Positions 31,081-49,734 of a stretch of DNA of 64,000 bases are shown piece by piece. The notes beneath the pieces were generated by a model that was given only the letters and a program-made list of their open reading frames with translations, had not been told where the DNA came from and did no database searches. The position numbers and the translations under genes are program-made. Each line of letters opens with the position of its first letter. Positions within the stretch are counted from its first letter, which is position 1. Origin of the DNA: Chiloscyllium plagiosum (lineage: Eukaryota); NCBI RefSeq assembly GCF_004010195.1, contig NC_057746.1, positions 9,987,045 to 10,051,044 on the forward strand. The letters are read 5' to 3'.

Positions 31081-31357
31081 TGTTGTTTGTCCTTTACAAT
31101 GAAAAGCTTCAACTACTAACTAATAAACTTTGGGTCTGTACAATTGGCCACTGCATTTTCCAATCCAAAAAAAATGTGCAAATGGCAGTCATTCCGTACA
31201 GAATTTTGGTAGACTGAGTCCAGTTTGTGGAATGTGCCCTTCATGTGAATTTTCCTATGGTAAAGCTGAGCTATTTCAGGGCGGAGAATCTGTCAGCCAC
31301 TGGCTGTATGCAATGCTGATCCAAACATACATGAAGCAATATTGACCACTTGTGTCG

Positions 31358-31811
31358 TGGAAATTAAATCGACTTGACGCAATTATTAGCAAGAGCAAAT
31401 AAATGAGGTTTATTCTTAATCCTGCAGGATTGACTCACTACACTAATCCAGATGCCTCAATGCAAGGAGTACTGAGCATTGTTCAGAGGCTTGTCTTATA
31501 CTGTTTCTTATCATGCTCTCAAGGACAGAGACTGGGAGAGCACAAGGAATTATTCTCTTATTCCGTGGTCTTAGATGCAATAATTCTTCAACTTTCGTTG
31601 AGTTTGACTATCACAAGTTCAAGTCGAATGTTTACATGATTCAAACAGAGATAAGCTAACTACAGACCTTCATCAAAGTATCGTTTACAAAGCTCTGTAC
31701 AGCATTCAATTGAAGAAAAGCATTCTCCTTCAACTTTCACAGTAAATGGATCATTAATTTCACAGTAAATGGATCATTAATTTCACAGTAAATGGATAAT
31801 TTTTCATTCCA
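31358..31811 (-). mobile_element. 3' LTR of the endogenous retrovirus
   Basis: On the minus strand it starts TGGAA right after the polypurine tract aaaaagggggaaaa (31812-31825) and ends TTCCA (inverted termini). TATAAG near 31500 and AATAAA at 31414-31409 are in the expected order. Confidence 0.8.
31735..31803. repeat. 23-bp tandem repeat (about 3 copies) in the LTR U3 region
   Basis: tttcacagtaaatggatcattaa repeated directly. Confidence 0.9.
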
Positions 31812-34071
31812 TTTTCCCCCTTTTTGACATAAACTGACAATAAGGACTACTACAGCAATAACACATTAAATCTAGAGCCAGAATAGCTAAACATCAGAAA
31901 ATGTTAAGGAAACACCAGGCCTTTCCTCACACACCACCTCCCCGAAACACAGCTGTGTGGCGGTATCGTCACTTGCTCTGGTGTGCCCTGTACACAGCCC
32001 ATGTTCACACGTCATACTCGCCAAAGTCATGGTAGTGTGGCGTCCACGCAATGCCCGTGCCCTTATAATAGTCCAACCAGGGCGCTTGCTAAAAGTGTGA
32101 GCTGTGGCAGCCCCATATTCGTATGAAGCTTCTAATCACTACTTGCACTTAATTGGTTCCAGTGCTGTCCGATGTCTCCTCCAGCCCAGCTACACGCTTG
32201 CAATGGCTGGTATATATCCACGTGGCTCTTTCTGCGACTTTAACAGTTGTCTGTATTTCAAGGAGCACTTGAAACGGTCCAAGCCACCTCTTCACCTTCC
32301 AGTTATTCCTCGTGAATTCTTTCACCACTATCCAGTCTACAGGTTCTAGATCATGCAGTTTCCGTCCTGCTGGTTGGGGTAGTGCTGCTTTCACTTGATT
32401 CTGTATTTGTGATAAAAATATATAGAGTTTTATACAGTAATGTAACATCTCATCCTCACAGTGGCTTGTTAGCTGCCTTACCTTATATCTTGGGCCAATT
32501 CTTTTGTTGGGCGGTCTACCAAACAAAATCTCAAATGAGCTAAGGTTAGCTCTTCCTCTCCTCCGAGATCTGATACACATTATCACAATCAGAAGAGACT
32601 TTGTCCATGTCACCTCTAGGTTCTCACAACTTTTTGTCATTTTTTTTTAGGGTAGCACTTTCTCTTTCCACTGCCCCACCGCTCGCTGGGTGTAGGCATC
32701 GTGTTGTCTCATATGTATTCCCAAATAATCACTGATCTGTTGAAATCATTATTGGCAAATGGTGTCCCATTGTCACTACTAAGCCTTTCAGGAATTATTT
32801 CTGTAAGCAAAGCTTTAGCTACTGCACTGGCATCCTGTTTAGACGAAACGCTTCCACCCATTTGGAAAACATATCAACTTTTACCAGGCAATACGTTTTC
32901 CCTTCTTTGGGCGTTAGTTCAATGAAATCCATCTGTAAATATTCAAAGGGTTTTTGGGGTTGGGGGTGTGCTGCCTGACTCATCTCTATTCCTCTCCCCA
33001 CATTATTAGTGACACAGATTACATAACACCCACAATATTTCTGGGAATAATAAGTAATTCCCTTCGTGTACCAGTGTGCTGAAATAATGTCGTACACCAC
33101 CCTCCCCACCCCACTTTTGACACACGGTCCTTACAATGTGTCAGTTTGGCATAGAATGGAAATAATGATCGTGGTAGAGAGGGTTTACAATTGGGGCCAC
33201 ATCATACTCCTTCCCTCGCACTGCAGCCTGCTTTTGTCCACTCACGATTTTCTTCTGATGTGGCCTGTGACTGTAACTCCCGCATGTCTGCTGTTGGGGT
33301 ACAACGTTTTGTTTTACACATGTCAATCTGCTCATTTTGCAGATGCTGTGCTGCCGTTCTTGCTGCTGATTCTGCCTTTGCATTGCCTTTGGAAATAAAA
33401 TCATTTTTGTGTGTGGGCTTCACATTTACACACAACGATTGATTTGGGCAATACGACCTCTTCCAGGAGGTCAGAAATCAGGCTACGGTGTGAGATGGGC
33501 TTTCCAGTGGAGATAAAGAAGCATCCTGTGTTTCCACAGGTTTCTGAAATCATGTACAATCTCCAATTAATATCTACTATTGGTGTAAATATTCAGTGTC
33601 TTTCCCTCAGCTAATTTACATGCCTCAGTCAAGGCAATCAGCTCTGCTGCTTGCGCTGACAGATGAGAAGGGAGTGATCCCGCTTTGACAATCTCGTAGA
33701 TAATCACTACAACATACCCAAAACAATTCCAGCCTGTCTCCTTGCTCCTGAATGCTGACCCGTCCACAAAAAAAACTCCATATCTGATTTCTGAAGTGGT
33801 GAATCCTGCAAATCTTGTCGAGGGCTGCAAATCTCATTCGTTACTGGGACATAATCATGTGGGTCTCTGTCGACTTCTGTGGGGAGAAGGCAAGCAGGGT
33901 TTAGGACGTTACATCACTTTATTGTAAAGTTAGACATCTCCAAGAGCACAGTATTATATCTGAGCCAACGTGCTGCTGACATGTGTGCGGCCATTTCCTC
34001 GGATAGAAGTAAGGATACTGAATGTGGGACCAGACGGGTTAATTCACCATAGCCGACTATAACCCTGGATA

Positions 34072-37000
34072 TTCCTGAAGAAGGGCTTATGCCCAAAACG
34101 TCGATTCTCCTGTTCCTTTGATGCTGCCTGACCTGCTGCGCTTTTCCAGCAACACTTTTTTAAGCTCTGATCTCCAGCATCTGCAGTCCTCACTTTCTCC
34201 TAGTTGATTTTAACCTACTGTGAATCTTCTTGCAAGGATGCCTTCCTTGAAGAAGCTCTCCTCCTCCCTCTACAAGGATCTCAGCGATTCCCTCTCTCAC
34301 TGCACCCCTTCCCCCGGGTCATCTCCTCTACCCTGAAGCTCTTCAGCCACGTCCTCAAACAGACTCGCTACCACAGCCACATCACCTTCCTCAGCAGACG
34401 TCCCCAAGAGTATCCTTCCACCGACACTCTCATTCTTTTGGCCGAACTGGTCCTCACCCTTAACAATTTGTCCTTTGAATCCTCCCACTTCCTCCAGACC
34501 AAAGGGGTAGCCATGGGCACACGTATGGGCCCCAGCTGTGCCTGTCTCTTTGATGGCTACGGAGAACAGTTGATCTTCCGTAATTACACCGGCACCACTC
34601 CCCACCTCTTCCTCCGCTACATTGATGACTGCATTGGCGCCACCTCGTGCTCCCGCGAGGAGGTTGAGCAGTTCATCAACTTCACCTACACATTCCACCC
34701 TGACCTTACATTTACCTGGACCATCTCAGACACCTCCCTCCATCTCCATTAGTGACGACCGACTTGACACTGACATTTTTAACAAACCCACCGACTCCCT
34801 CAGCTACCTGGATTACACATCTTCCCATCCTATCTCTTGCAAAAATGCCATCCGGTATTCCCAATTCCTCCGCCTCTGCCGTATCTGCTCCCAGGAGGAC
34901 CAGTTCCACCATAGAACACACCAGATGGCCTCCTTCTTTAGAGACCACAATTTCTCTTCCCACGTGGTTAAAGATGCCCTCCAACGCATCTCGTCCACAT
35001 CCCGCACCTCCGCCCTCAGATCCCACCCCTCCAACCGTAAGCAGGACAGAACGACCCTGGTGCTCACCTTCCACCCTTACAAACCTCCGCATAAACCAAA
35101 TCATCTGCTGACATTTCCGCCACATCCAAAAAGACCCCACCACCAGGGATATATTTCCCTCCCCACCCCTTTCCGCCTTCCGCAAAGACCGTTCCCTCCG
35201 TGACTACCTGGTCAGATCCACGCCCCCCTACGACACACCCTCCCATCCTTGCACTTTCCCCTGCCACCGCAGGAACTGTAAAACCTGTGTCCACACCTCC
35301 TTCCTCACCTCTATCCAAGGTCGTAAAGGAGCCTTCCATATCCATCAAAATTTTACCTGCACATCCACTAATATCATTTATTGTATCCGTTGCTCCCGAT
35401 GCGGTCTCCTCTACATCGGGGAGACTGGGTGCCTCCTAGCAGAGCGCTTTAGGGAACATCTCCGAGGCACCCGCACCAATCAACCAAACTGCCCCGTGGC
35501 CCAACATTTCAACTGCCCATCCCACTCTCCTGAGGATATGAAGGTGCTGGGCCTCCTCCACCGCCTCTCCCTCACCACCAGACGCATGGAGGAAGAACGC
35601 CTCATCTTCTGCCTCGGAACACTTCAACCCCAGGGCATCAATGTGGACTTCAACAGCTTCCTAATTTCCCCTTCCCCCACCTCATCCTAGTTTCAAACTT
35701 CCAGCTCAACACTGTCCTCTTGTCTTGTCCGGACTTGTCCGACCTGCCCAGCTCATTTTCCACCTATCCACTCCACCCTCTCCTCCCTTATCTATCACCT
35801 TCATCTCCTCCCCCACTGACCTATTGTACTCTATGCTCCTCCCTCCCCACCCCCACCTTCCTCTAGCTTATCTCTCCACGATTCAGGCTCTATGCCTTTA
35901 TTCCTGATGAAGGTATTTTGCCCGAAACGTCGATTTTGCTGAAGCTCCTCGGATGCTGCCTGAACTGCTGTGCTCTTCCAGCACCATTGATCCAGAATCT
36001 GGTTTCCAGCATCTGCAGTCTTTGTTTTTACCTTTTTAACTTGTTTACAGAAGCGACTGACCAATCATGGACTCCGGACTACATTCAGAACAACAAAATT
36101 TGGACTCAACCAAGCGCTCGGGCACCATTAACCATGCGGCCGCTGCAGCAATCGCCGCCAACAATGACGTCATTTCCGCCCCCACCGACCATGCAGCCTC
36201 CGCGATCGTCGCCCAGACAACTGCCTCCACGATCGCCAGGAAGATCATCGCTGACAGATTCGCGGCCTCCGTGGGGTCCACAACCAACGGGAACAACACC
36301 GTTTCTGCATTCGCCACAGCCACTTCCGCCCCTGGAGTTTCCGTCGCCGCATCTACGTCCGCCCCAGTGACGTCACTCGCCTGCACAATGATTACGTCGC
36401 ATGCGTCTCTGCCCCCACGCCAATCCCCGCCACTGCGCCGAACCCTGTCCCAACGCCTAACTCCGCCTCCATGCCTAACACCGTCCCCACGCCTAACCCC
36501 GCCCCACACCAAACCCCGCCCCACTCCCAGCTCCACAGGTCCTAGCTCCCAGCCATGCCGTATATTCACCATCTCTCCAGACCTCCCCCTCTCTGAGGAT
36601 GAAAGACGAGTCCTTAGCAGAGCCCTCACTTTCATTCCCCTAAGCTCCCGGAATAACAAATTCAACATGCGGCGAGAAATCGAGCATTTCTTCTGCTGCC
36701 TTCCCCTCCAAATTTACTTCTTCAACCAGCACTTCCGCCCACCCTCGGACGACCCCATCCACCTGGACACCCCGTGCTGGCCTCTTAGCTGCCCTCGATC
36801 TTTTCATAGCCAACTGCCGCTGTGACATTGAACGCCTCAACCTGCCCACCCCTCTCACCCACTCCAACCTCTCACCCTCGCAACGTGCAGCCCTCCACTC
36901 CCTCCGCTCCAACCCCAACCTCACCATCAAACTGCCAGACAAGGGAGGTGCAGTGGTAGTTTGGCGCACCGATCTTTATATTGCTGAGGCTAAACGCCAG

Positions 37001-38860
37001 CTCGTGGGCACCTCCTCCTACTGCCCCTTGACCATGGCCCCACCTCCCACCACCAAACCATCATTTCCAGACCATACATAGCCTCATCACCTCAGGGGAA
37101 ATCCCATTCACCACCTCCAACCTCATAGTCCCACAACCCCGCACTGCCCGTTTCTACCTCCTGACCAAAATCCACAAACCTGACTGCCCCAGGCGACCCA
37201 TTGTCTCAGCCTGCTCCTGCCCCACCATACTCATTTCTGCATACCTTGACACGGTCCTGTCATCCTTAGTCCAAGAACTCCCCACTTACGTTCGGGACAC
37301 CACCCACGCCCTCCACCTCCTCCATGATTTTCACATCCCCGGCCCACAACGCCTTATTTTCACCATTGACATCCAGTCCCAATACACCTTCATCCCCCAT
37401 CACGAAGGCCACAAAGCCCCCCGCTTCTTCCTTTGCTGTCGAATCAACCAGTACCCTTACACTGACACCCTCCTTCCAATGATTGAACTGGTCCTCACTC
37501 TGAACAACTTCTCTTTCCAATCCTCCCACTTCCTCCAAACCAAAGGAGTAGCCATGGGCACCGGCATGGGCCCCAGCTATGCCTGCCTCTTCGTTGGATA
37601 TGTGGAACAGTCCATCTTCCGCAGCTACACTGGCACCACCCCCCACCTTTTCCTCCGCTACATCGATGACTGTAACGGGGCTACCTCGTGCTCCCACGAG
37701 GAGGTTGAACTGTTCATCCACTTTACTAACACCTTCCACCCTGACCTTAAATTTACTTGGACCGTCTCAGACTCCTCCCTCCCCTTCCTCGACCTCACCA
37801 TTTCTATCTCAGACGACCGACTCAACACGGATGTTTACTATAAACCGACTGACTCCCACAGCTACCTAGATTACACCTCCTCCCACCTTGCCCCCTGTAA
37901 AAACGCAATCCCATATTCCCTATTCCTTCACCTTTGCCGCATCAGCTCCCAGGAGGACGAATTCCACTACCGAACAACCCAGATACATCGTATCATTCTT
38001 CATCATTTCCACCACCTCCAAACAGACCCCACCACCAAGGAGATATTTCCCTCCCCACCCCTATCAGTGTTCCGGAAAGACCACTCCTTCCGCGACTTCC
38101 TCGTCAGATCTACAGCCCACACCAACACAACCTCCACTCCCAGCACCTTCCCCTGCAACCGCAAGAAATGCAAAACTTGCGCCCACACCTCCCCCCTCAC
38201 TTCCCTCCAAGGCACCAAGGGATCCTTCCATACCCGTCAGAAATTTACCTGCACCTCCACACACATCATTTACTGCATCTGCTATACCCGATATGGCCTC
38301 TTATACATTGGGGAGACAGGCCGACTACTTGCAGAACGTTTCAGAGAACACCTCTGGGACACCCGCACCAACCAACCCAACCACCCTGTGGCTGAACACT
38401 TTAACTCCCCCTCCCACTCCGCCAAGGACATGCAGGTCCTTGGCCTCCTCCATCGCCAGGCCATGGCAACACGACGTCTGGAGGAAGAGCACCTCATCTT
38501 CCGCTGATGAACCCTCCAACCACAAGGGATGAATGCAGATTTCTCCAGCTTTCTCATTTTCCCTTCCCCAAAATTTTCTCAGTCTCAACCCTCAGACTCA
38601 GCACCGCATTCTTGACCTGCAATCTTCTTCCCGACCTCTCCGCCCCCAACCCCTCTCCGGCCTATCACCCTCACCTTAACCTCCTTCCACCTGTCATATT
38701 CCCAGCGCCTCTCCCCCAAGTCCCTCCTCCCTATCTTTTATCTTAGCCTGCTTGGCACTCCCTCCTCATTCCTGAAGGAGGGCTTTGCCCGAAACATTGA
38801 TTATCCTGTTCCTTTGATGCTGCCTGACCTGCTGCGCTTTTCCAGCAACACATTTTTAAG
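34072..38860 (+). mobile_element. Near full-length Penelope-like element (RT + GIY-YIG, direct pLTRs) inserted in ERV pol
   Basis: TSD ctataacc(c/t)tggata at 34057-34071 and 38861-38875. ORF 37479-38507 has QTKGVAMGT, FLRYIDDC and IIYCICYTRYGLLYIGETGR; hammerhead-bearing repeats sit at both ends. Confidence 0.93.
34395..36035 (+). mobile_element. 5'-truncated Penelope copy of a second subfamily nested in the outer Penelope
   Basis: Abrupt jump from the N-terminal region (HSHITFLS) into RT (RRPQEYPSTDTLI...YIDD), GIY-YIG region near 35370-35430 and a distinct pLTR variant near 35900-36035; the outer element then resumes. Confidence 0.8.
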
Positions 38861-40259
38861 CTATAACCTTGGATACTACAACACTCTTTTCAACTGCGGC
38901 CACGGCTGAATCCTGGCGCTAAACGATCCTGCCGCTACAGGGTCTAGTTTAGCTAAAAAATATGCTTCCGGCCTCAATCTTCCCCCATGATCCTGCCAGA
39001 ACACAGATGTCATGCAGCCACGCTTCTCATCTACCGTTTGTACAAAAGGCTTGTTTGGATTCGGAATCCCCAGTGAAGGTGTAGTTTGAAGCGCCTTTTT
39101 TAGTTCAACAAAGACACTTTCAGCCTCAGGGATACACTGCAACGGACTCTAGTTCGGCAAACCTTTGCCATGGGCTATGTCACTTAGGGGACGCTCAAGG
39201 ATAAACCCATAATGTGGGATAAACATTCCACAGTCGAAGCACATGCCCCAAATAGATAGTAATTGTGTTTTCGTGTGAGGCTTTGGAATTTGCAGGATTG
39301 TTTGAACTCTGTCTTGACCAATGGCCTTCCCTTGTTCAAATATTAAGTGACCTAAGAACTTCACCTGTTGTTGCACAAATTGCAGCTTTGCGAGACTAGC
39401 TTTGTGTCCTTCCCTTGCTAGGTGGCAGAGCAACGCAATGGTATCCTTCTCACATTGTTCCTTTGTTGGTGTCGCTATCAAGCAATCACCTACATACTAC
39501 AGAAGCACTGACCCCGGGGTTAGAACAGAAGTCTCCAGACTTTTGCGTAGAGCCACATTATATATGGTGGGGGACTCACAGTAACCTTGATAAAGTCGTG
39601 TGAATGTGTATGATTTTCCTTTGAATGAAAAAGCGAACCAGAATTGACTATCTGGGTGCACAGTTACACGAATGAAGGCACTAGCTAAATGCAGAACAAT
39701 GAACCATTTCCTGTCCGGTAGAATTTGAGTTAATATCGTATAGGGGTTGGGAAAATTTGGGGCGCATGGGGCAAAAGCATTATTGACTGCCTGCAGGTCA
39801 TGAACAAACCTCCATTCCTCCGGTTCACAGGGAATGCTTGCCGTTTTACCCGTAAAATGGGGGTTCTCACCAGTGAGTTTTCACAGGGGATTATCACTCC
39901 TGCCTTTAAGAGGGACTCAAAGACTGGAGTAATTCCTTCTGTGGCCTCGGGTTTTAACGGGTATTGTGCTCTGCAAGGTTGATACTCAGACTTCATGGTT
40001 ATTCTTATTGGTTCACAGCCTCGTATGATTACCACATCATGTTTGCCTTTTGTCCACACCTCAGTAGGAGACGTTTTTAATCTTGGGTCCGAGACTTCTA
40101 TCTTAGGGAAACGCCAGGCTACCCTCCTAGGCTTTTTAGTGCGAGAGCGGGTTACCTGGACCGTCCTATCTGCCTGAGTTAGCCAATTTGGTTTCCTCCT
40201 ATATGTCCACATAACTGCATTGAACCATATATGCACATCGTCCCAGAAGACTCAACCTT

Positions 40260-40760
40260 TCGTTCTTTGTGCCTTTCGCACCCATGGTCCAAAGTCATGC
40301 CACCTGTCACCTGTCTTCCCCAGTGACACGTGAAGAGCTGAGCCTTCCACATCAAAATGACAATTTACAATGCAGGCTATTTCCTGAAGCACTGTCTCTC
40401 ATTAAGCCGTGTCAACATTCAATTGATCCCTTTAGCCACAAGGGCTATATCTACTTTCTTCTTTAAAATGCAATCTGTCACAGGTACTTTAGATAAGTTT
40501 ACACTGACTTCACATGTGTGATCAATACAATAAAATTCGCAAAGTAACAAGTGATCTAGTTTAACCAATCTCCTGAACCAATCCTCCTCATCTGATTCAT
40601 TAGGACCATCGCAGTGTACGTGTGCTGTGCAGTGCAGCATTACCTCAGTAAGAAAATCGTTGTTAATAGGTTTAACATGTTTACTTGCTTCCAGAGTGAG
40701 TGAATCACTCACCGAACCTATTGCTCTCCGGATTAATCGACATTCATAGACATACATCAG
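40260..40760 (-). other. 2H phosphoesterase-like domain remnant in ERV pol, between protease and RT
   Basis: LHCTAHV (HCT 40634-40626) and SALHVSLGK...WHDFGPWV (HVS 40332-40324) form the paired Hx[T/S] signature; split by an insert of about 125 bp containing CR1-tail sequence. Confidence 0.75.
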
Positions 40761-43029
40761 GGGTCGTGGGTCATGGTTACACCCTACACAGGTAAATCTT
40801 CACTTTGAATTTCCTGCAAGCCCTTCGGAGTATTGATTAAATCCAAACCCAGTCTCCCTATGAGATTCCGACCCAACAGATTTCAAGGACAGAATTTCGA
40901 TAACAAGAATGAGAATTGGAATGTTTGCCCGTTACTGGTTTTGCACAATAGGGGTGCAGAATATCTCTCTCGTACAGCGACTTCTGATGCACCCATTGTG
41001 TTCAGGACGCATCCACTCACCTTTATTGGCGTCGATTGTCTAAACTGGCTTAATTTAAGGACTGAATATGTTGCTCCGGGATCTAGCAAAACGGTAACTG
41101 TTGTATCTTCCACATATAACTCAGAGGTAGGCATCGACTTATACGCAACATTGTTACATTGAACACATTGTCCACACTTCGCAATATAGAGGAGGGACAT
41201 TTCTCAGTGCCCCGTAAGGGTAGTAGAAGAGTTTAGCATAAGCGAGTCTTCATTGCCAAGCATAAGGGAAAGAGGCTTACCTGTACCTTGTGGGGTGCCC
41301 ACCTCCACCTCAGCCGTCCCGTCTGTCACCAGCCTCAAGGGCCGATTGGGGCTGTCTGTGCAGACATTGTCTCGCCCAGTGGTCCATTGCTCCGCAAAAA
41401 AGCACCCGCCAGTTCTACCTCGACCAGCGCCTCTTCCACAACTCCTTTTCCTCTTCCACGATCTCCATCTCTGCCTCTCTCTCTCTCTTCCTGCAGCACC
41501 TCCTCCAACGGCTGGGTGACCATTTGCATCATAGTAAGCTGAGCCTTATGTGCTTGCTGGTCCATCTTTAGTTTCTGATTATCCTTCTCGTGTTTAAGCA
41601 GTTTTTCAGCTTGCATCGCATGTTGTTCTATCAAATTCAGCTTTCCCGTGTCCCAGGTAATATATGTGTCTTTTACCTTTTTTGCTATTTCCTTCTTCAT
41701 TCCATTGAGGAAGCTGCTCCTCAGGTGTGCTTCATACGCTGTGATTTCTGCCGCCGTTATGTCGTCGGGTGGTCTCAGTCCACTGTGGGTGTTATGGACG
41801 TCAGTGAGGCGCATAAGGTACTGGGACAGTCTCAACTTCCCGTTGTTTCTGGGAATGCCTCCCTACAGACTGCTGCCAGTGTTGCAACAAAAGCATTAAA
41901 GTCTCCATTCTCTTCTGCTTGCGGGTCAGTTGATCTGGCATGGCCAATTATACTTGATTTTGGTGTCATAGGCACCCAGCTTTCATTCCAGAAGATAGCC
42001 CATATCATGTGACATGCGATGGAACTCGGAATATAACTTTGCCACTTCTTCAGCGAACTTATTACCTCCAGCTTCGCGTGCGTCAGGCAACTGCCCATAG
42101 GCACTTTCCTAATCCTTCATGATCCATGGTCAGTGGACCAGCATTATGTGCCCTTCTAGACCTGCAACTTCAACCATTGGTGCTTGCAGGATTACCTGGT
42201 AAGATAAATGTATGCTAATATTCTCGGCTGACTCATCATCCATCATGGGGAGAGCACGAGCAGGCCCTGGATGCCTTTTCGTCTTGGAGTGGCCATCGCA
42301 ATTTTGAGCTTCTTCCTTTAATTGGTTTCAGGTATGACTTGATATCAATGATTCAGCAGACCCTGAGGCGGCGGTTGCTGACTTGGAATCTTCGCCAGGC
42401 GGATCTCATGGGGGAGGTGTAGGTCTCGGAGGACATTCATCAACGTCAGGATCTGGAACAGACTTAAGATACTGTACAGCTTCGTTAGGTTGTTTTCTGC
42501 GCGGATCTGCATGTGTGTTAGAGTTTGTGCACATATTTGATCAAATCTATTACTTGAGATTTCCTTTCTCTGATAACAGCCTCAGCTTCCACATGTTATT
42601 AGCACTCCAATTGACAGTTTCTGTTTTTCCCTTCCGTTTCTCCTTCTCTTTCTCTCTCCTCCAACCTCGACCTGAATATTTCCAACTGCCTTTTACTAAA
42701 ACTTCCTCCCTTCCGAAAACCACATTACTTGATCCACAATTCTAACTGCTTTACAGACACTGGGCCGTAACTATTTAGCATGTAATGTGTTTTTCGTTGG
42801 CCATTCCAAGTCCTCTGTGGTGCCTCTTCTTGTTTGCACTTGCTGGGACACATTTGTAGCGTTACTGGAAAAGTGTTCAACCTTCTGTCTGTCGTGGTAC
42901 GGTTATCTTTTTCCCTTTGACTTGCTTTTTCTCTGAATTCGACTGCTCGCAAGGCCGGGTTGAGCGTTTGCAAAGTTCAGCAAAAACGAGCTGTCTCCTC
43001 GATTGCAGAATTCAGCAAAGTGTTTGCAA

Positions 43030-44833
43030 AGTTCATAAAAGTATTAAATTGAGCAAAGCATTCCCATTCAGATTTCTCAGTGAATGTTAATTTTGTTAAT
43101 TTTCCATTAAAATAGGAAAAGAAAGGAAAAGATAATCTGGTACTAGCTGTAACACAGAGCGAAGAACCAAGTTCAGATAATTCCAAATTGAACATCCCTC
43201 AAATTAATTGGACAATGATTAAGTTCTCAAAAAAGTGATAGATTATTTGATTACTTTCCAGATGAATATCGAAAGGACCTGGAAGTGTTATTACAATCAA
43301 ATGGGGACATATATTGGATTAAGCTCCGAAGTGAAAATCTTATGATGCGTGATGGAGATACAGGAAATGCTGTTCCAAATAAGCAACATGCTTATGGACA
43401 TAAACCTCCAAAATTCACACAGGTTCAAAAGGAGACTATTTGCATAGTCAAAGACAATATAATCGGAATGAGTTGAAGCAACTGGGTCTCACCCAATATA
43501 AAGTTGCTGAAACCAAATGACACCTATTCACCATGTATGGACTTTCGCAAAGTCGATGACATTGCAAAATCTGATTCATCTCCTACTTCATATTTGGATG
43601 ACTCCATTCAGAATGTAGGACAAGGTACATTGATTTCAAGGATGAACTTATTCAGAAGATACAGACAGTTGTCTTAATCTGAAAGAACAAATGAAATTTC
43701 AGCCTTCCTGATATCGAATGGTCTGCGCCAATTTATCGTCATGCCATTTGTTAGGAAAACTGAGCCAGCTACATTTAAAAGATTTAAATAATAAAGTGAA
43801 TTTCGATTTAGCTAACTGTGTGGTGTATGTCGATGGTGTGGTGATTTTTAGTCACACATGGCAGGAATATTTGAAGCATATATCTGAATTATTTGGGAAT
43901 AGATTAGCGTTGTGAAGCAGCCTTGACGATAAACCTTGTTCACAGCGAGTTCGCAAAAGCTCAAGTCACATTCCTGGGTTATGTCATTGAACATAGACAA
44001 GTGACCCCATAGGATGAGAAAATAAAGGTTATTAGGGAGCATTATATCGCATTGATGAAGAGGAAATTGCGATTGCTGGGACTGAGTAGGCTTATCCGAA
44101 TTTTAGAAGTGTGGTCACTCACTAGCTGACTTGTTGAAGAAGAGCACAAATCTTAGCAGGCACAGCAATGTCAAAGACATTTGTTGCCTGGAATCTGTGT
44201 TAGCCACTGTTCCAGTGTTAGTCATACCTAATTACATATTGCTGAAAATGTGTTGCTGGAAAAGCGCAGCAGGTCATATCTAATTACATATTGCCATTCA
44301 ATGTGGTCGTTGCTGCAAATGACTTGGGTGACGTTGCTGGTCTCTTGCAAGAAGAAAATAAAAAGACCGATTGGATTTTTTTTCAGCAAATTAAATTGTA
44401 ATCAACTGAAATATTCCACAATTGGAAAGGAGGTTTTGCGTTTGGTGTTAGCATTCCATCATTCCAATATTTATATTTGCTGTATTTAGTCTGAGACAAT
44501 TGTATAAACTGTCAGTAAGGAGTTAAAGTTTTTAGAAAAAATGAGGCTAAAAATTCTCGACTCTTCAGATGGAGATTATTATTACAGACATTCTATTTGA
44601 AGGTTAACCTTGTGACAGGATGAGAGAACGTAATTGTCAATTTGTTGCTGCGACTATGAGGAAGGAAGGTGATGGGACAAGAACAGACTATAATGGACTG
44701 TAGCAGCGAATATTTCATATTAGAATCCATGTGATGTATAAGTATTGCTTTGTAGTATTAGTATAAAACTAAGTCTTTTTCAAAAATGAAGCCGTTTTTG
44801 TATATTAATGGTTCTTTTCTTTTAGAGAGGAGG
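43030..44833 (+). mobile_element. Degraded Gypsy-group LTR retrotransposon RT-RNase H (possibly Gmr1-like domain order)
   Basis: GNAVPNKQHAY (usual form PIKQHPY), VYVDGVVIFSHTWQEYLKH and PIGFFFSKLNCNQLKYSTIGKEVL. Pol ends after RNase H near 44660, followed by a purine tract at 44824-44833. Confidence 0.8.
44243..44272 (-). mobile_element. 30-bp abortive Penelope tail insertion with 22-bp TSD
   Basis: tgaaaatgtgttgctggaaaagcgcagcag is flanked by gtcata(c/t)ctaattacatattgc at 44221-44242 and 44273-44294. Confidence 0.85.
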
Positions 44834-45240
44834 TGTGAAGATGTAATGGCTTTAAGATGCTTGACTGAGGTTGAGACAGAGATACTGAGCGTTCTGTTCG
44901 AAGCCAATAAAGTGAACAACTTGTGAGGTCTGTTTTTTTTATTCATAAAATTGGAAATATAGACACAGCCGAAATGAGTAGGCTCCAGCTTCCAATGAAG
45001 CACAATTTGTAAGTTGACGTTCAGCAGTGGCTGGGGTCTTGAAGATGGATGTAGGAGCTGTTATTCCTCTCTTGCTTCAGGCGAAATGCTGGGGTTGTCT
45101 TTTATCTGCTCGAATTTTATGTGAGGTAATCTATTATACTGAAATTGCCTTTGCCAAAGTTTTGTTCATTGAATGTTACTAAATTTTAATAGTTGCTGCT
45201 TAGTGGTTAAATAATCTATTATTCCAGTAAATGCTTGAAA
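44834..45240 (+). mobile_element. Putative 3' LTR of the Gypsy element (right end uncertain)
   Basis: TGTGA start immediately after the purine tract; similar to the start of the 4942 LTR-like segment. Confidence 0.5.
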
Positions 45241-45764
45241 GCATTTTCCCCCTTAATCTTTGGCTTAGAATTGGAAGAGCGATCAATGGCAAACTCTGAT
45301 TTGTACAGGGAAATCCAACATTTTTATTCAATTTGTGTTGCAAAGATCAAACATAGCGTAGTCACTATGTTTGCCCTAAATTGCGTCCGTCCAATCCTTT
45401 AAAAAACACACATTACTCAATGATGGGCATTCCTCTAGAAAACTTCCAGGTTACCGTGACCTCGTGGAGTTTTACAGGCATCTTAATTTTTGGGCCTTTG
45501 GATCTTCCTATGCATCCTATTCATTTGATTTCAATGTTACTCACTACACACCTTCAGATGTGTCTCAGGCTTGCTGATCTCTAAAGACAACTCAAATGCT
45601 GTTACTCATTGCATTTTTCACTATCCAAATTATAAATGCAAAAATAGACAAACACACCTTAGTTTTTACTACTTTGTATTAGATTTGTAATGTTGATTTC
45701 TGTTATAAAGTTTGGATATACATAGCTGCTTCAGCTTTTCGCCCTTTGTGATTAACAAGTTGTG

Positions 45765-46770
45765 TGGAGGTTGAGCAATTCATCAACTTCACCAACACAT
45801 TCCACCCTGACCTTAAATTTGCCTGGACCATCTCTGACACCTCCCTCCATCTCCATTAGTGACGACCGACTTGACACTGACATTTTTTACAAACCCACCG
45901 ACTCCCCCAGCTACCTGGATTACACCTCTTCCCAGCCTATCTCTTGCAAAAATGCCATCCCGTATTCCCAATTCCCCCGCCTCCGCCGTATCTGTTCCCA
46001 GGAGGACCAGTTCCACCATAGAACACACAAGATGGCCTCCTTCTTTAGAGACCGCAATTTCCCTTCCCGCATGGTTAAAGATTCCCTCCAACGCATCTCG
46101 TCCACATCCCGCACCTCCGCCCTCAGACACCACCCCTCCAACCGTAACAAGAACAGAACGACCCTGGTGCTCACCTTCCACCCTACAAACCTCCGCAAAA
46201 ACCAAATCATCTGCCGACATTTCCGCCACCTCCAAAAAGACCCCAACACCAGGGATATATTTCCCTCCCCACTCCTTTCCGCCTTCCGCAAAGACCGTTC
46301 CCTCCATGACTACCTGGTCAGATCCACGCCCCCCTACGACCCACCCTCACATCTTGGCAGGGGGTGGGCCCTCCTCTAGCTTATCTCTCCATGCCCCACC
46401 CCCACCCTCCCCTAGCTTATCTCTCCACGCTTCAGGCTCTCTGCCTTTATTCTTGATGAAAGTCTTTTGCCCGAAATGTCGATTTTGCTGCTCGTTGGAT
46501 GCTGCCTGAATTGGTGTGCTCTTCCAGCACCACTGATCCAGAATCTGGTTTCCAGCATCTGCAGTTATTGTTTTTACCTCGTTGATTTTAACCCTACTGC
46601 GAATCCTCTTGTAAGGATGCCGACCTTGAAGAAGTTTTCCTCCTCTCACTACAAGAATCTCAGGGAGTCCTTCTCCCACTGCAACTCCCAGGTCATTTCC
46701 TCTGCCCTGAAGCTCTTCAACCATGTCATGAAACACACTCTTTACCACAACCACATTTGCTTCTTTCATC
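45765..46770 (+). mobile_element. 5'-truncated, internally deleted Penelope copy with pLTR and tail running into the next ORF start
   Basis: DIFYKPTDSPSYLDYTSSQPISCKNAIPYSQF; same pLTR variant as 35900-36035; tail MPTLKKFSSSHYKNL... Confidence 0.88.
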
Positions 46771-48427
46771 AATATCAGACTTGGCATTTTTAGAGATCGG
46801 AGAAACGGAGGCTAATTACATTTCAATTCTAGGTTTTTGTTCCAAATGCTTCTATTAAATTTTGGATATACGTGCATCTATACCTATGGTGAAATTTATC
46901 CCTATGATTGTCTGAAGAATTCTTAACTGGAACATGCTTTTTAATATTGCGATTAAATTCAAAGAAACAACTATTTACGAAAAAGTAAATTGAACTGTTG
47001 TGTTTGACGATGCTTAGGGAGTCCATTTGGTTCGTTCATGGGCTGAGACTGGCATCTGGTGCTATTCGATGACTGATGAGGCTGGGATCTATTGATTGTC
47101 TGCCTTTCGGCATTGTCCTATATAATCTGTCTCGAATGGTTGCTCGCTCGGCCCCTTCAATGATCTGAGAATGGCTCTGTTCAAAGGTACCATAATCTTT
47201 CACTGTATATGCAGGTTTTTAAATTTTGCTGATGTTTCGTCAGTCATTTTGTCTAAGTAGTCACTGGCCATTTTTGTCTAAGCAGGTACGGGCCACCACA
47301 ACAAATCTTCAATATTGTTATGTTATAGCAATCCTTGTTTCTGTTGTTGTATTTTAATTATCGCGTATAAATAACGTTTTTTTTTCGTGCTTCAAGACTG
47401 GTAGTTGCAAGACTAATCGAGTTGCATCTAGACAGGAACACCTGGAATTGACAACAAAAGAGAAATAGAATCTTGGCTATCTCCTTGTCATGTGTTGAGG
47501 GGGTTTGGTCTCGTCCATAAGATACGATAGGTTTATACTAACTTTGATTTTACTTTACATGCGCCTTCAAGGAAGACGAGAAGAAAAAAAATCCTTTGAT
47601 GTGTGGCAAAATTATCTACTTCTGGTTAAGAAAATACATTTTAAAAAAATGACAAGTTGTTATCTAACGTGACAATTTCATTCGTGTAATGTGTTGTTCA
47701 AACCAGCCGTAATTTTCTAATAATGTGTTCGGCAGAGCTTTATTGATGCTTATCATACAGTTCCATACTCGCAACCAAATATTCACGGTTGAAGCAAAAA
47801 ATTCCATACCCAGTTTATGTTTAATTGGAATGCAATATGTTGCATTTTATTTGACATAATTATCTGATCTGTGTCATTCTGCTTGGATAAAAATCAAGAA
47901 TATTTTTAGTAAACTTACGACTTGCCAGTCCATCATTTTTCCATTCATCACAAAATGCTGAATTTCCATTCCATTCTCTGATGTGCATGCTGTCAAAAAG
48001 GTAGAAGAAATTGTGCTCGTTTTCCATTGAAAATATTGTGATACTTTTAGCTATTATGTTTCAGGTGGAATCCTAAATCATAAACAAAAAACACGGAGCT
48101 ATTTCCATATTACTGGCTATCCCACACATAATAGTTGCTTACGAATATAAATATGTATCAAACATTTTTTTTTCCAAAAAAAACACCTGACATTTTTTAT
48201 GCCGTCAGAAATTATTTTAAAATTTAAGTAGATGCATTAGTTGTTTTATTTCAAGTAGACAATAAATTAAACGCGACAAACAAAACATCGCTATGTTCTT
48301 TGCGGGGTGAGCTGTGAGGTAGAGGCATAGAATCTCCAATTTGAATATTATGCACTTTCTCTGAAAGAAGTGGAAAACTGTTCATTATTTCAATATTTTC
48401 AATTAAGGTTGTTCCATTTCATTTGAT

Positions 48428-48564
48428 TGTTCCATTCCATTCCTGAAGAAGGGCCTGTGCCCGAAACGTCGAATCTCCTGTTCCCTGGATGCTGCCTGAC
48501 CTGCTGTGCTGTTCCAGCAATAAAGTTTCAACTTTGATCTCCAGCATCTGCAGACCTCACTTTC
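48428..48564 (+). mobile_element. 137-bp Penelope pLTR-derived unit with hammerhead, 15-bp TSD
   Basis: TSD tccatttcatttgat at 48413-48427 and 48565-48579. Confidence 0.87.
48439..48474 (+). ncRNA. Minimal type I hammerhead ribozyme (best-preserved copy)
   Basis: ATTC-CTGAAGA-A-GGGC-CTGT-GCCC-GAAA-CGTC-GAAT: stem I ATTC/GAAT, stem II GGGC/GCCC, predicted cleavage after C48470. Confidence 0.82.
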
Positions 48565-49734
48565 TCCATTTCATTTGATGCCTTGGAATCCAGGCTTAGC
48601 TGACGATGCTATGACCTCTGTAGTCAAGCATTATAGTTTAGCCTTGTTTTCATATACCACATAAGCTATTGCCTTTGACGTCAGATTTATCTTTCTCAGC
48701 ATGCACGAACACAGAAATTGAAACTAAACAAGTAGTAATTTATTGTGGCTCGAAGACCAGTCTTCTCTTTGTTTTTTTTTAAACAATCGGAATCTTTACT
48801 CCTCTTGGCATTTTAAGACGTTGTTTCAATGACATTTATTTCAATTTTTAACATGTATAACGAAAATGTCAGAACTAACCAGGTAAAGTTAGTATTTTCT
48901 ATAGGGATTGTTCTTTTGTTATCAATGATAGACATTAGGGTGCTGCAAATATTTTTTTTTGTCGAACTAATTACTTATGTTACATTTTTATGCAGCACAG
49001 GACAGCCGGTCTGGGTGTGCTGTTCTTCAGAAGGTCTGCGTGGACTTGATGGAAACTTGACTGTTTCCGCACTGTAGAGATTCTATGAGTTTTATGCAAT
49101 ATTACCATTTAGAGAGGTGTCAACGCTTTGTTCCATTAGAGTCAACAACGTTCGTCTTTTGGCTTTAATCATGTTACATGTTGTAATGAGTATGATGTAC
49201 GATCATGTCGAATTTGACGAAAATGTTTGGATTTTTCTGGTGGTATTCCATCCAGAAGCCCTTCTGATTGCAAAACTTCCCAATGTCAAATGAATAGTCG
49301 GGAGGAATTTAGATATATTCATAGTCTTGAGAGTTCATGGATAGGCTAGCATCTTTACGTGTCCATAGGATGGTTAAGGGTAAAACACAGTCCTTTGCAT
49401 CTGAAGTCACATTTGCTCGACACTAGATAAAGATGATCAATTTCACTCACTGAAGTTCATCATTGAACCAATGCATTTTGTACAACTTTGAAAAGTGGTT
49501 ACGCAGCCACCATAAATCTCTCTATTTACTTTAAAGTCCATTAAAAAAAAGAAATCGAATTTCAATAACTGCCATGCTGGCATTTGAGCCCATTGCTGTA
49601 GAATACTAACTTGAGATTTTTGGTTTGCTGTCCAGTAAAATCATCAATACATCATCATCAACATGCTTAACTGTGAAAGTTACAGTTAAATGGATATGAA
49701 ATATTACTTCATTATTATTAATTTCTGGTTGGAA

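What the first reader, a model, noticed from the sequence alone, without database searches (positions are those of the whole stretch)
40260..40760. Shark endogenous retrovirus with a 2H phosphoesterase domain between protease and reverse transcriptase
Seen: about 200 extra codons separate the protease from RT. They contain LHCTAHV (40634-40626) and, past an insert of about 125 bp with CR1-tail sequence, FDVEGSALHVSLGKTGDRWHDFGPWV (HVS 40332-40324); the second motif is missed by the ORF track. Known: paired Hx[T/S] motifs define the 2H phosphoesterase superfamily. Viral members (coronavirus ns2, rotavirus VP3 C-terminus) degrade 2'-5' oligoadenylates, phage Acb1 degrades cyclic oligonucleotides, and a 2H domain has been noted in some fish retroviral pol proteins. 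Inference: this cartilaginous-fish retrovirus lineage carried a pol-embedded nuclease, plausibly an antagonist of nucleotide second-messenger immunity (OAS-RNase L or cGAS-STING) or an RNA-end processing enzyme. Both catalytic motifs survive in this dead copy; the substrate cannot be read from sequence.
Basis: partly seen in the sequence, partly recalled or inferred. Interest (0 to 1): 0.85.

Follow-up and report, generated by a model that had tools for sequence, protein, structure and literature searches.

The report
CNPase-like domain inside shark retroviral Pol
A dead endogenous retrovirus carries, between its protease and reverse transcriptase, a conserved two-histidine domain predicted to fold like the vertebrate enzyme CNPase; such a domain was already noted in fish retroviruses, and it likely opens cyclic-phosphate RNA ends rather than destroying the immune messenger 2-5A, though this is untested.

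Summary
HCT (40634-40626) and HVS (40332-40324) lie in a ~190-codon domain between protease and RT. A ~112-bp LINE-derived insert interrupts it; 59 of 59 other genomic copies examined lack the insert. A natural open-frame copy, folded with 114 homologues (pLDDT 89), matches CNPase best (Z 15.1, 2.7 Å over 159 residues), then a fungal RNA kinase entry (Z 11.7). Acb1 (7.9), ns2 (7.3) and AKAP18 (6.9) score far lower. Among viral models, walleye WEHV-1 and WDSV polyproteins rank 2 and 3. A profile search found 197 homologue clusters; the second histidine is their most conserved column. This is a new member of the fish-retroviral 2H/CNPase-like domain already in print, not a shark novelty. All 11 clusters with a named animal host are teleosts, which lost OAS-RNase L, so 2-5A antagonism is unlikely to be the shared function. 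Best guess (0.5): a virion-borne 2',3'-cyclic phosphodiesterase that heals RNA ends. cGAMP cleavage is not excluded (0.2). I found no functional test in print. The scan has reported this domain five times before, once in this genome.

The parts
42924..43109 (-). 5' LTR remnant
   Evidence: 83% identical over 186 bp to the repeat found at both ends of another copy
41335..42933 (-). gag region, decayed (assigned by position; no Pfam hit)
   Evidence: 79% DNA identity to another copy over 41456-42933; no informative family
40883..41164 (-). retroviral aspartyl protease
   Evidence: Pfam RVP E 0.0035, under cut-off; 42% identity to flatfish ERV Pol
40476..40784 (-). 2H domain, first part, with motif 1 HCT at 40634-40626
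   Evidence: 67% aa identity to natural open-frame copy L007; motif position
40363..40474 (-). insert private to this copy; first half is the coding tail of a high-copy LINE (CR1-like, name recalled), same sense as pol
40110..40362 (-). 2H domain, second part, with motif 2 HVS at 40332-40324; contains one stop near 40254
38927..40100 (-). reverse transcriptase and connection, broken by stops and frame changes
   Evidence: Pfam RVT_1 E 3.6e-8, RT_RNaseH_2 E 5.1e-7; tblastn with flatfish Pol
34071..38861 (+). later insertions of RT + GIY-YIG (Penelope-like, name recalled) elements that split pol
   Evidence: Pfam RVT_1 and GIY-YIG; the stretch is absent from three other copies
32191..34069 (-). 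RNase H and integrase
   Evidence: Pfam RNase_H E 2.9e-9, rve E 6.2e-6
31851..32190 (-). remnant of the env region; about 1.8 kb is missing, with the same junction as in six other copies
31353..31850 (-). 3' LTR remnant
   Evidence: both ends match another copy's LTR at 82-83%

Best explanation
This is a decayed epsilon-like endogenous retrovirus whose pol gene holds, between protease and RT, a two-histidine domain predicted to fold like CNPase, which likely worked as a virion-packaged 2',3'-cyclic phosphodiesterase that opens cyclic-phosphate RNA ends. Shown: position, both motifs, their conservation across distant fish ERVs, and past purifying selection similar to RT. Predicted: the CNPase-type fold. 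Inferred: the domain was made as part of Gag-Pol, so it was packaged in low copy next to RT and genomic RNA and either released by the protease or left on RT. There it would turn 2',3'-cyclic phosphate ends left by metal-independent host RNases (on primer tRNA or nicked viral RNA), or free 2',3'-cyclic nucleotides, into 2'-phosphate/3'-OH, the reaction known for CNPase and the tRNA-ligase CPD domain (established knowledge). A 3'-OH end is what RT needs to extend. This copy is dead and makes no such protein.
For: Model pLDDT 89.4, pTM 0.85 from 121 sequences. Foldseek PDB: all 40 rows shown are CNPase/RICH, best E 3.2e-5. Independent VIA search of 48,161 chains: CNPase Z 13.6 (4.1 Å, 167 aligned), next 9.2; Acb1 7.9, MHV ns2 7.3, AKAP18 6.9, rotavirus VP3 5.5-5.8, penguinpox cGAMP PDE 4.9. 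Re-ranking: human CNPase Z 15.1 (2.7 Å, 159 aligned), fungal RNA kinase entry 6u05 Z 11.7 (recalled as tRNA ligase kinase-CPD), LigT up to 8.5. By sequence, the only 2H hits of a domain profile in PDB are goldfish RICH (E 0.025) and human CNPase (E 0.52), with LHCT aligned to LHCT. Atlas neighbours of the flatfish domain at 0.93-0.94 carry tRNA_lig_CPD (10-22% of members) or 2H-SAK (91%). In 150 listed homologues His119 is the most conserved column (0.96; His52 0.81, Thr54 0.87; median column 0.37); Hx[TS] in 92 of 121 rows covering motif 1 and 80 of 116 covering motif 2. Shared variants among genomic copies have pN/pS 0.45 in the domain, 0.46 in RT, 0.37 in protease; private variants 0.98. 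9 of 11 teleost-named representatives keep both motifs although ray-finned fish lost OAS-RNase L (PMC10400998).
Against: No activity has been measured. Identity to CNPase is only 14-18% and the domain does not reach Pfam CNPase in 0 of 121 sequences. Substrate is plastic within the 2H fold (PMC11410667), so a shared fold does not fix it. No retroviral step is known to need cyclic-phosphate opening and most retroviruses lack the domain (recalled); whether RT extends a primer with a 2'-phosphate is unknown to me. 28 of 92 homologue rows have lost His52 or the motif-2 Ser/Thr, so catalysis was not always kept. The homologues were collected with a profile that contains the motifs, which inflates their conservation. 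Within this genome the motif columns are no better conserved than average (0.83-0.88 vs median 0.84). The pN/pS count is not tree-aware.
Confidence: 0.5

Rival explanations
1. The domain destroys cyclic dinucleotides such as 2'3'-cGAMP. Delivered with the viral core, it would blunt STING signalling set off by reverse-transcription products.
For: 2H-fold enzymes of avian poxviruses and phage Acb1 cleave cGAMP (PMC11410667). After the three retroviral rows, the next BFVD hits are Acb1-labelled proteins (E 4.6e-4, 6.8e-4). Pol delivery puts it where cDNA is made (inference). Both host groups are thought to have cGAS-STING (recalled, not tested).
Against: Acb1 Z 7.9 and penguinpox PDE Z 4.9 against CNPase 13.6 in the same search; TM-scores to Acb1 models 0.37-0.39. 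Few Pol copies per virion suit a local RNA job better than clearing a diffusible messenger (inference).
Confidence: 0.2
2. The domain acts without catalysis: a nucleotide- or RNA-end-binding module, a spacer, or a decoy against host CNP, which blocks HIV-1 assembly by binding Gag.
For: Loss of His52 and of the motif-2 Ser/Thr go together (12 of 17 rows without His52 also lack Ser/Thr) and occur at several separate places in the tree, with the domain still in frame. Host CNP restricts HIV-1 independently of its enzyme activity (PMC5758531, one passage).
Against: 64 of 92 rows keep His52 and the motif-2 Ser/Thr, and the His columns are among the most conserved. Rows are not independent, and decayed ERVs lose motifs by drift.
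Confidence: 0.13
3. The domain degrades 2'-5' oligoadenylate and blocks RNase L, like coronavirus ns2 and rotavirus VP3.
For: This genome has an OAS gene cluster (15 exon matches over cut-off). The pathway works with ghost-shark proteins in yeast (PMC10400998). ns2, AKAP18 and VP3 share the fold.
Against: Those enzymes score Z 5.5-7.3, about half of CNPase. Intact motifs are kept in ERVs of teleosts and the domain is in walleye viruses, hosts without OAS-RNase L. The known viral 2',5'-PDEs descend from AKAP7-like genes (PMC10835031).
Confidence: 0.07
4. It hydrolyses another cyclic phosphate, such as ADP-ribose-1'',2''-cyclic phosphate, within NAD+/ADP-ribose conflicts.
For: 2H domains are known or predicted to resolve this substrate (PMC9503650 section 21); some fish ERVs also carry macro domains (PMC4977317); CPDases rank second and seventh (Z 9.2, 7.0).
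Against: CPDases score well below CNPase; no macro domain was reported by Pfam in the pieces scanned.
Confidence: 0.08

Closest known systems
2H/CNPase-like domain of fish retroviruses (WDSV, WEHV; teleost epsilon-like ERVs). Mazumder 2002 as cited in PMC9503650; Basta 2009 as cited in PMC4977317; neither original was held
   Same: Best viral structural matches are Q2VF30 (unnamed in the output; recalled as salmon swim bladder sarcoma virus), WEHV-1 Q9WHI8 and WDSV A4GTG3, E 2.9e-8 to 2.5e-6, TM 0.61-0.73. Teleost ERV homologues are 25-41% identical and lie between protease and RT.
   Different: Host appears to be a cartilaginous fish; high-copy, decayed family (at least 150 scored matches of 900 candidates); His spacing 67 against a usual 57-63. 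The position of the match inside the walleye polyproteins was not shown by the tool.
Vertebrate CNPase / fish RICH catalytic domain (PDB 1woj, 2xmi, 2i3e; Pfam PF05881)
   Same: Best solved match, Z 15.1, 2.7 Å over 159 residues; same LHCT first motif; the host's own CNPase exons read LHCTTKF and AHITL.
   Different: 14-18% identity; below Pfam detection; profile match to the host exons is weak (E 0.005 and 0.19); embedded in a polyprotein with no CNPase N-terminal domain.
Fungal tRNA ligase cyclic phosphodiesterase (Pfam PF08302; PDB 6u05, identity recalled)
   Same: Z 11.7; weak Pfam hits in 3 of 121 sequences, best E 0.0024; Atlas neighbours.
   Different: 8% identity; no ligase or kinase partner here.
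Viral immune-messenger PDEs: MHV ns2, rotavirus VP3 C-terminus, phage Acb1, avian poxvirus cGAMP PDE; cellular AKAP7/AKAP18
   Same: Same two-histidine fold.
   Different: Z 4.9-7.9, a separate branch from the CNPase-like group; many hosts of this domain lack OAS-RNase L.

Membership tests
2H phosphoesterase superfamily | two Hx[T/S] motifs, conserved across the family | tested here: met
   92 of 121 and 80 of 116 rows; both in 58 of 91; His119 is the top column
2H phosphoesterase superfamily | two-lobed 2H fold with each His at the start of a strand | tested here: met
   model pLDDT 89, strands start at 52 and 119; ranks 1-21 of the wide VIA search are 2H-type entries by title or recall
2H phosphoesterase superfamily | motifs align with the catalytic motifs of a solved member | tested here: inconclusive
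   motif 1 aligns with RICH/CNPase LHCT at E 0.025; motif 2 with host CNPase AHIT only at E 0.19; structural tools gave no residue pairing
2H phosphoesterase superfamily | phosphoesterase activity | not testable with these tools
   needs an assay
Fish-retroviral Pol 2H domain (WDSV/WEHV type) | in frame in pol between protease and RT | tested here: met
   L007 open frame; 35 of 40 longer homologues carry RVP and/or RVT_1
Fish-retroviral Pol 2H domain (WDSV/WEHV type) | homology to WDSV/WEHV polyproteins | tested here: met
   BFVD ranks 2 and 3, E 4.5e-7 and 2.5e-6; matched region not shown
Fish-retroviral Pol 2H domain (WDSV/WEHV type) | RT phylogeny with epsilonretroviruses | not tested
   no reference RT sequences were fetched; 'epsilon-like' rests on 43-58% identity to flatfish ERV RT and the literature (PMC4977317, PMC4422223)
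Vertebrate CNPase family (PF05881) | Pfam gathering score | tested here: not met
   0 of 121 sequences
Vertebrate CNPase family (PF05881) | closest solved fold | tested here: met
   works like, not filed as, a CNPase
AKAP7-derived viral 2',5'-PDEs (ns2, VP3) | closest cellular relative is AKAP7-like | tested here: not met
   AKAP18 Z 6.9 (4.3 Å, 139 aligned) against CNPase Z 13.6 (4.1 Å, 167 aligned) in one search
AKAP7-derived viral 2',5'-PDEs (ns2, VP3) | host has OAS and RNase L | tested here: inconclusive
   OAS present; RNase L not identified: the two KEN-domain exons found look like IRE1 by recall; teleost hosts lack both

The most novel reading that the evidence does not exclude
Fish and shark retroviruses captured a CNPase-branch enzyme and carry it inside Pol as a virion-delivered nuclease against 2'3'-cGAMP, which would be the first retrovirus-encoded destroyer of an immune second messenger and a new substrate for the CNPase branch.
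Probability: 0.2. Interest if true: 0.75.

Novelty: new member of a known kind. Interest (0 to 1): 0.3.

Why it matters
The domain is an extra enzyme in Pol that a wide group of fish retroviruses has kept, and I found no test of it. Two recent surveys of viral 2H enzymes do not mention retroviruses (0 occurrences: PMC10835031; PMC11410667). Either outcome of an assay would be informative: an RNA end-healing step in reverse transcription that other retroviruses lack, or a retroviral counter to cGAS-STING. This locus itself adds little: one more broken copy, and the extension of a known domain to a likely cartilaginous-fish host. The work here narrows the assay to CNPase-type substrates first and 2-5A last.

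Tried and rejected
Pfam finds nothing in the window's two domain pieces or in L007's domain; single-sequence PDB search gave only chance hits. A first fold from 10 close copies failed (pLDDT 37) and was not searched. Word-index homologue searches found 0, 1 and 1 proteins. No relatives in phage records or viral contigs. Motif conservation among copies in this genome was rejected as evidence because it equals background. Motif spacing alone was rejected (11 chance pairs). RNase L was not identified in the genome by one Pfam search, which does not show absence. Whether the domain stayed under selection after env loss could not be decided: env-deleted copies do not form one clade in a star-like tree of 54 of 60 copies. 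Splicing as cause of the shared env deletion was rejected: ends are TG..CG with ATT on both sides. Expression: no RNA holder listed; 0 reads from two RNA runs of one sample on this copy, which is no test; family-wide expression stays open. Literature searches for a functional test found none; the library lacks most subscription papers, and Mazumder 2002, Basta 2009 and Paul 2006 were not held. cGAS and STING were not searched in the genome. No supplements were read.

Full report
1. Observation. On the minus strand, HCT is at 40634-40626 and HVS at 40332-40324, in different frames. Protease lies upstream (Pfam RVP E 0.0035, under cut-off) and RT, RNase H and integrase downstream; a flatfish ERV Pol aligns along the whole of pol. 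A DNA search of the genome scored 40 of 587 candidates; the other copies matched on both sides of about 40474-40363 but not across it. The insert is absent from 58 of 58 other copies and from L007. Contigs of a public DNA run span both junctions (may be the assembly's own sample). About 46-59 bp of it match the coding tail of a high-copy LINE ('CR1' is recalled). The domain continues to about 40110, and this copy also has a stop near 40254 and a frame change near 40790-40760. Eleven chance motif pairs exist in the window's six frames, so the motif pair alone proved little.

2. The family in this genome. A protein search scored 150 of 900 candidates, all strong matches. Ten of 60 fetched copies have the domain free of stops; one, L007, has a natural 561-aa frame through protease, domain and RT start and was used for all searches and folds. 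Among the 60 copies motif columns are no more conserved than others, as expected after neutral decay. Variants private to one copy have pN/pS 0.98 in the domain, while variants shared by five or more copies have 0.45, against 0.46 in RT and 0.37 in protease (a simple count, not tree-aware). So the domain was under purifying selection while the element replicated. The tree of 54 copies is star-like, mean identity 86%. The element has LTRs and, in 4 of 20 measurable copies, a 2.1-kb env region with a TLV_coat match; the window copy lacks most of env.

3. Homologues elsewhere. Word-index searches found only a flounder ERV Pol, 37% identical over the domain. A full HMMER search of 1.84 billion representatives found 197 proteins at E <= 0.001 and listed 150. 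His119 is the most conserved column (0.96), with His52 0.81 and Thr54 0.87 against a median of 0.37; Hx[TS] stands in 92 of 121 and 80 of 116 rows, both in 58 of 91. The profile contained the motifs, so these figures lean high. Of 40 longer hits, 35 carry protease and/or RT. Of 21 clusters looked up, 11 are named to teleosts, one to a bacterial metagenome bin, nine are unnamed; 9 of the 11 teleost representatives keep both motifs. The shark sequences fall among these in a tree of 88 of 156 rows, at up to 41% identity.

4. Fold. A shallow alignment failed (pLDDT 37); 121 sequences gave pLDDT 89.4, pTM 0.85. All 40 Foldseek rows shown from PDB are CNPase or RICH. The independent wide search ranks CNPase at Z 13.6, then a CPDase 9.2, LigT-type 8.1-8.7, Acb1 7.9, ns2 7.3, AKAP18 6.9, VP3 5.5-5.8, penguinpox cGAMP PDE 4.9. 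Re-ranking gives human CNPase Z 15.1 at 2.7 Å over 159 residues and a fungal RNA kinase entry 11.7. Sequence profiles and the Atlas point the same way, weakly. Among viral models the top three are Q2VF30, WEHV-1 and WDSV polyproteins (the latter two carry an 'envelope polyprotein' label there, and the matched region is not shown). The domain does not reach the Pfam CNPase family, so it works like, but is not filed as, a CNPase.

5. Mechanism. Position in pol implies synthesis with Gag-Pol and packaging beside RT (established retroviral biology). The two closest solved relatives open 2',3'-cyclic phosphates to 2'-phosphate/3'-OH (established knowledge). I therefore commit to a virion-borne RNA end-healing phosphodiesterase at 0.5; the substrate and its role in priming are inferred. 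2-5A cleavage (0.07) is disfavoured because OAS-RNase L was lost in ray-finned fish (PMC10400998, passages) while their ERVs keep the motifs; against this, the host here has OAS genes and the pathway works in a ghost shark; RNase L was not identified here. cGAMP cleavage (0.2) is possible since 2H substrates vary (PMC11410667, passages). A non-catalytic role (0.13) is kept open by 28 of 92 rows with motif loss and by CNP's enzyme-independent block of HIV-1 assembly (PMC5758531, one passage).

6. What is known. PMC9503650 (passages and section 21) lists 2H domains in fish retroviruses including WDSV, citing Mazumder 2002. PMC4977317 (passages) reports CNPase and macro domains in ray-finned-fish ERVs, citing Basta 2009. 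The originals were not held. PMC4422223 (first of two parts) describes epsilon-like ERVs in elephant shark without this domain in the part read. PMC10835031 (passages) and PMC11410667 have no retrovirus mention; PMC3185748, PMC6307210, PMC8672886, PMC6001957 and bioRxiv 2021.11.23.469661 (term searches) added nothing. Seven searches found no functional test; the library is partial. After my own tests, the scan's notes showed five earlier reports of the same domain with the same reading, one from this genome; they are not independent support.

7. Verdict. Real, well supported as a 2H domain of the CNPase branch, and a new member of a known kind. The open question, its substrate, is worth an assay but is not new, and this broken copy is not needed to test it. 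Interest 0.3.

Noticed in passing
L098:5125-5898 (-), L082:3567-3857 (+); missing from the window copy: The start of the env region in env-bearing copies encodes an immunoglobulin V-set domain (Pfam E 7.4e-6, 26.6 bits, over the cut-off of 26; second copy E 2.7e-4), ahead of a TLV_coat match. It looks like a captured CD300/pIgR-type domain (recalled). Term searches in three fish-ERV papers found no mention; no library-wide search was left.
   Followed up: partly
window 31851-32190; L086, L088, L089, L092, L097, L100: Seven of 20 measurable copies, the window's included, share one ~1.8-kb env deletion with the same junction; four others have 72 bp or less between integrase and LTR; four keep about 2.1 kb; five are intermediate; 4 of 24 stretches could not be measured. 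Much of the family may have spread without env.
   Followed up: partly
window 43404-49321 and L081:4494-9500 (G000:C37, about 370 kb away): A second copy on the same contig shares about 5 kb of upstream flank (83-85%) and groups with the window copy (support 0.99), but keeps env and has a different downstream flank. Old duplication plus recombination between copies is my guess.
   Followed up: partly
P0026, P0032, P0039, P0050, P0056, P0057, P0061, P0080, P0090, P0021: Homologues that have lost both motifs together (for example QCT with HIP) while the domain stays in frame, on several branches: candidate pseudo-enzymes.
   Followed up: partly
P0116 (587 aa), P0125 (302 aa): Two database proteins join the domain to Ig domains or an ALKBH8 N-terminal match instead of pol parts; probably gene-model chimeras, possibly co-option.
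   Followed up: no
P0058 cluster: A protease-2H-RT protein is labelled as a Cetobacterium metagenome bin; likely fish DNA in a gut bin.
   Followed up: no
G000:C25:15317927-15378388: Tandem cluster of about three OAS genes in the host genome.
   Followed up: no
window 43400-45760: A second, plus-strand LTR-element remnant (RT_RNaseH hits at 44232-44486) lies just upstream of the provirus.
   Followed up: no
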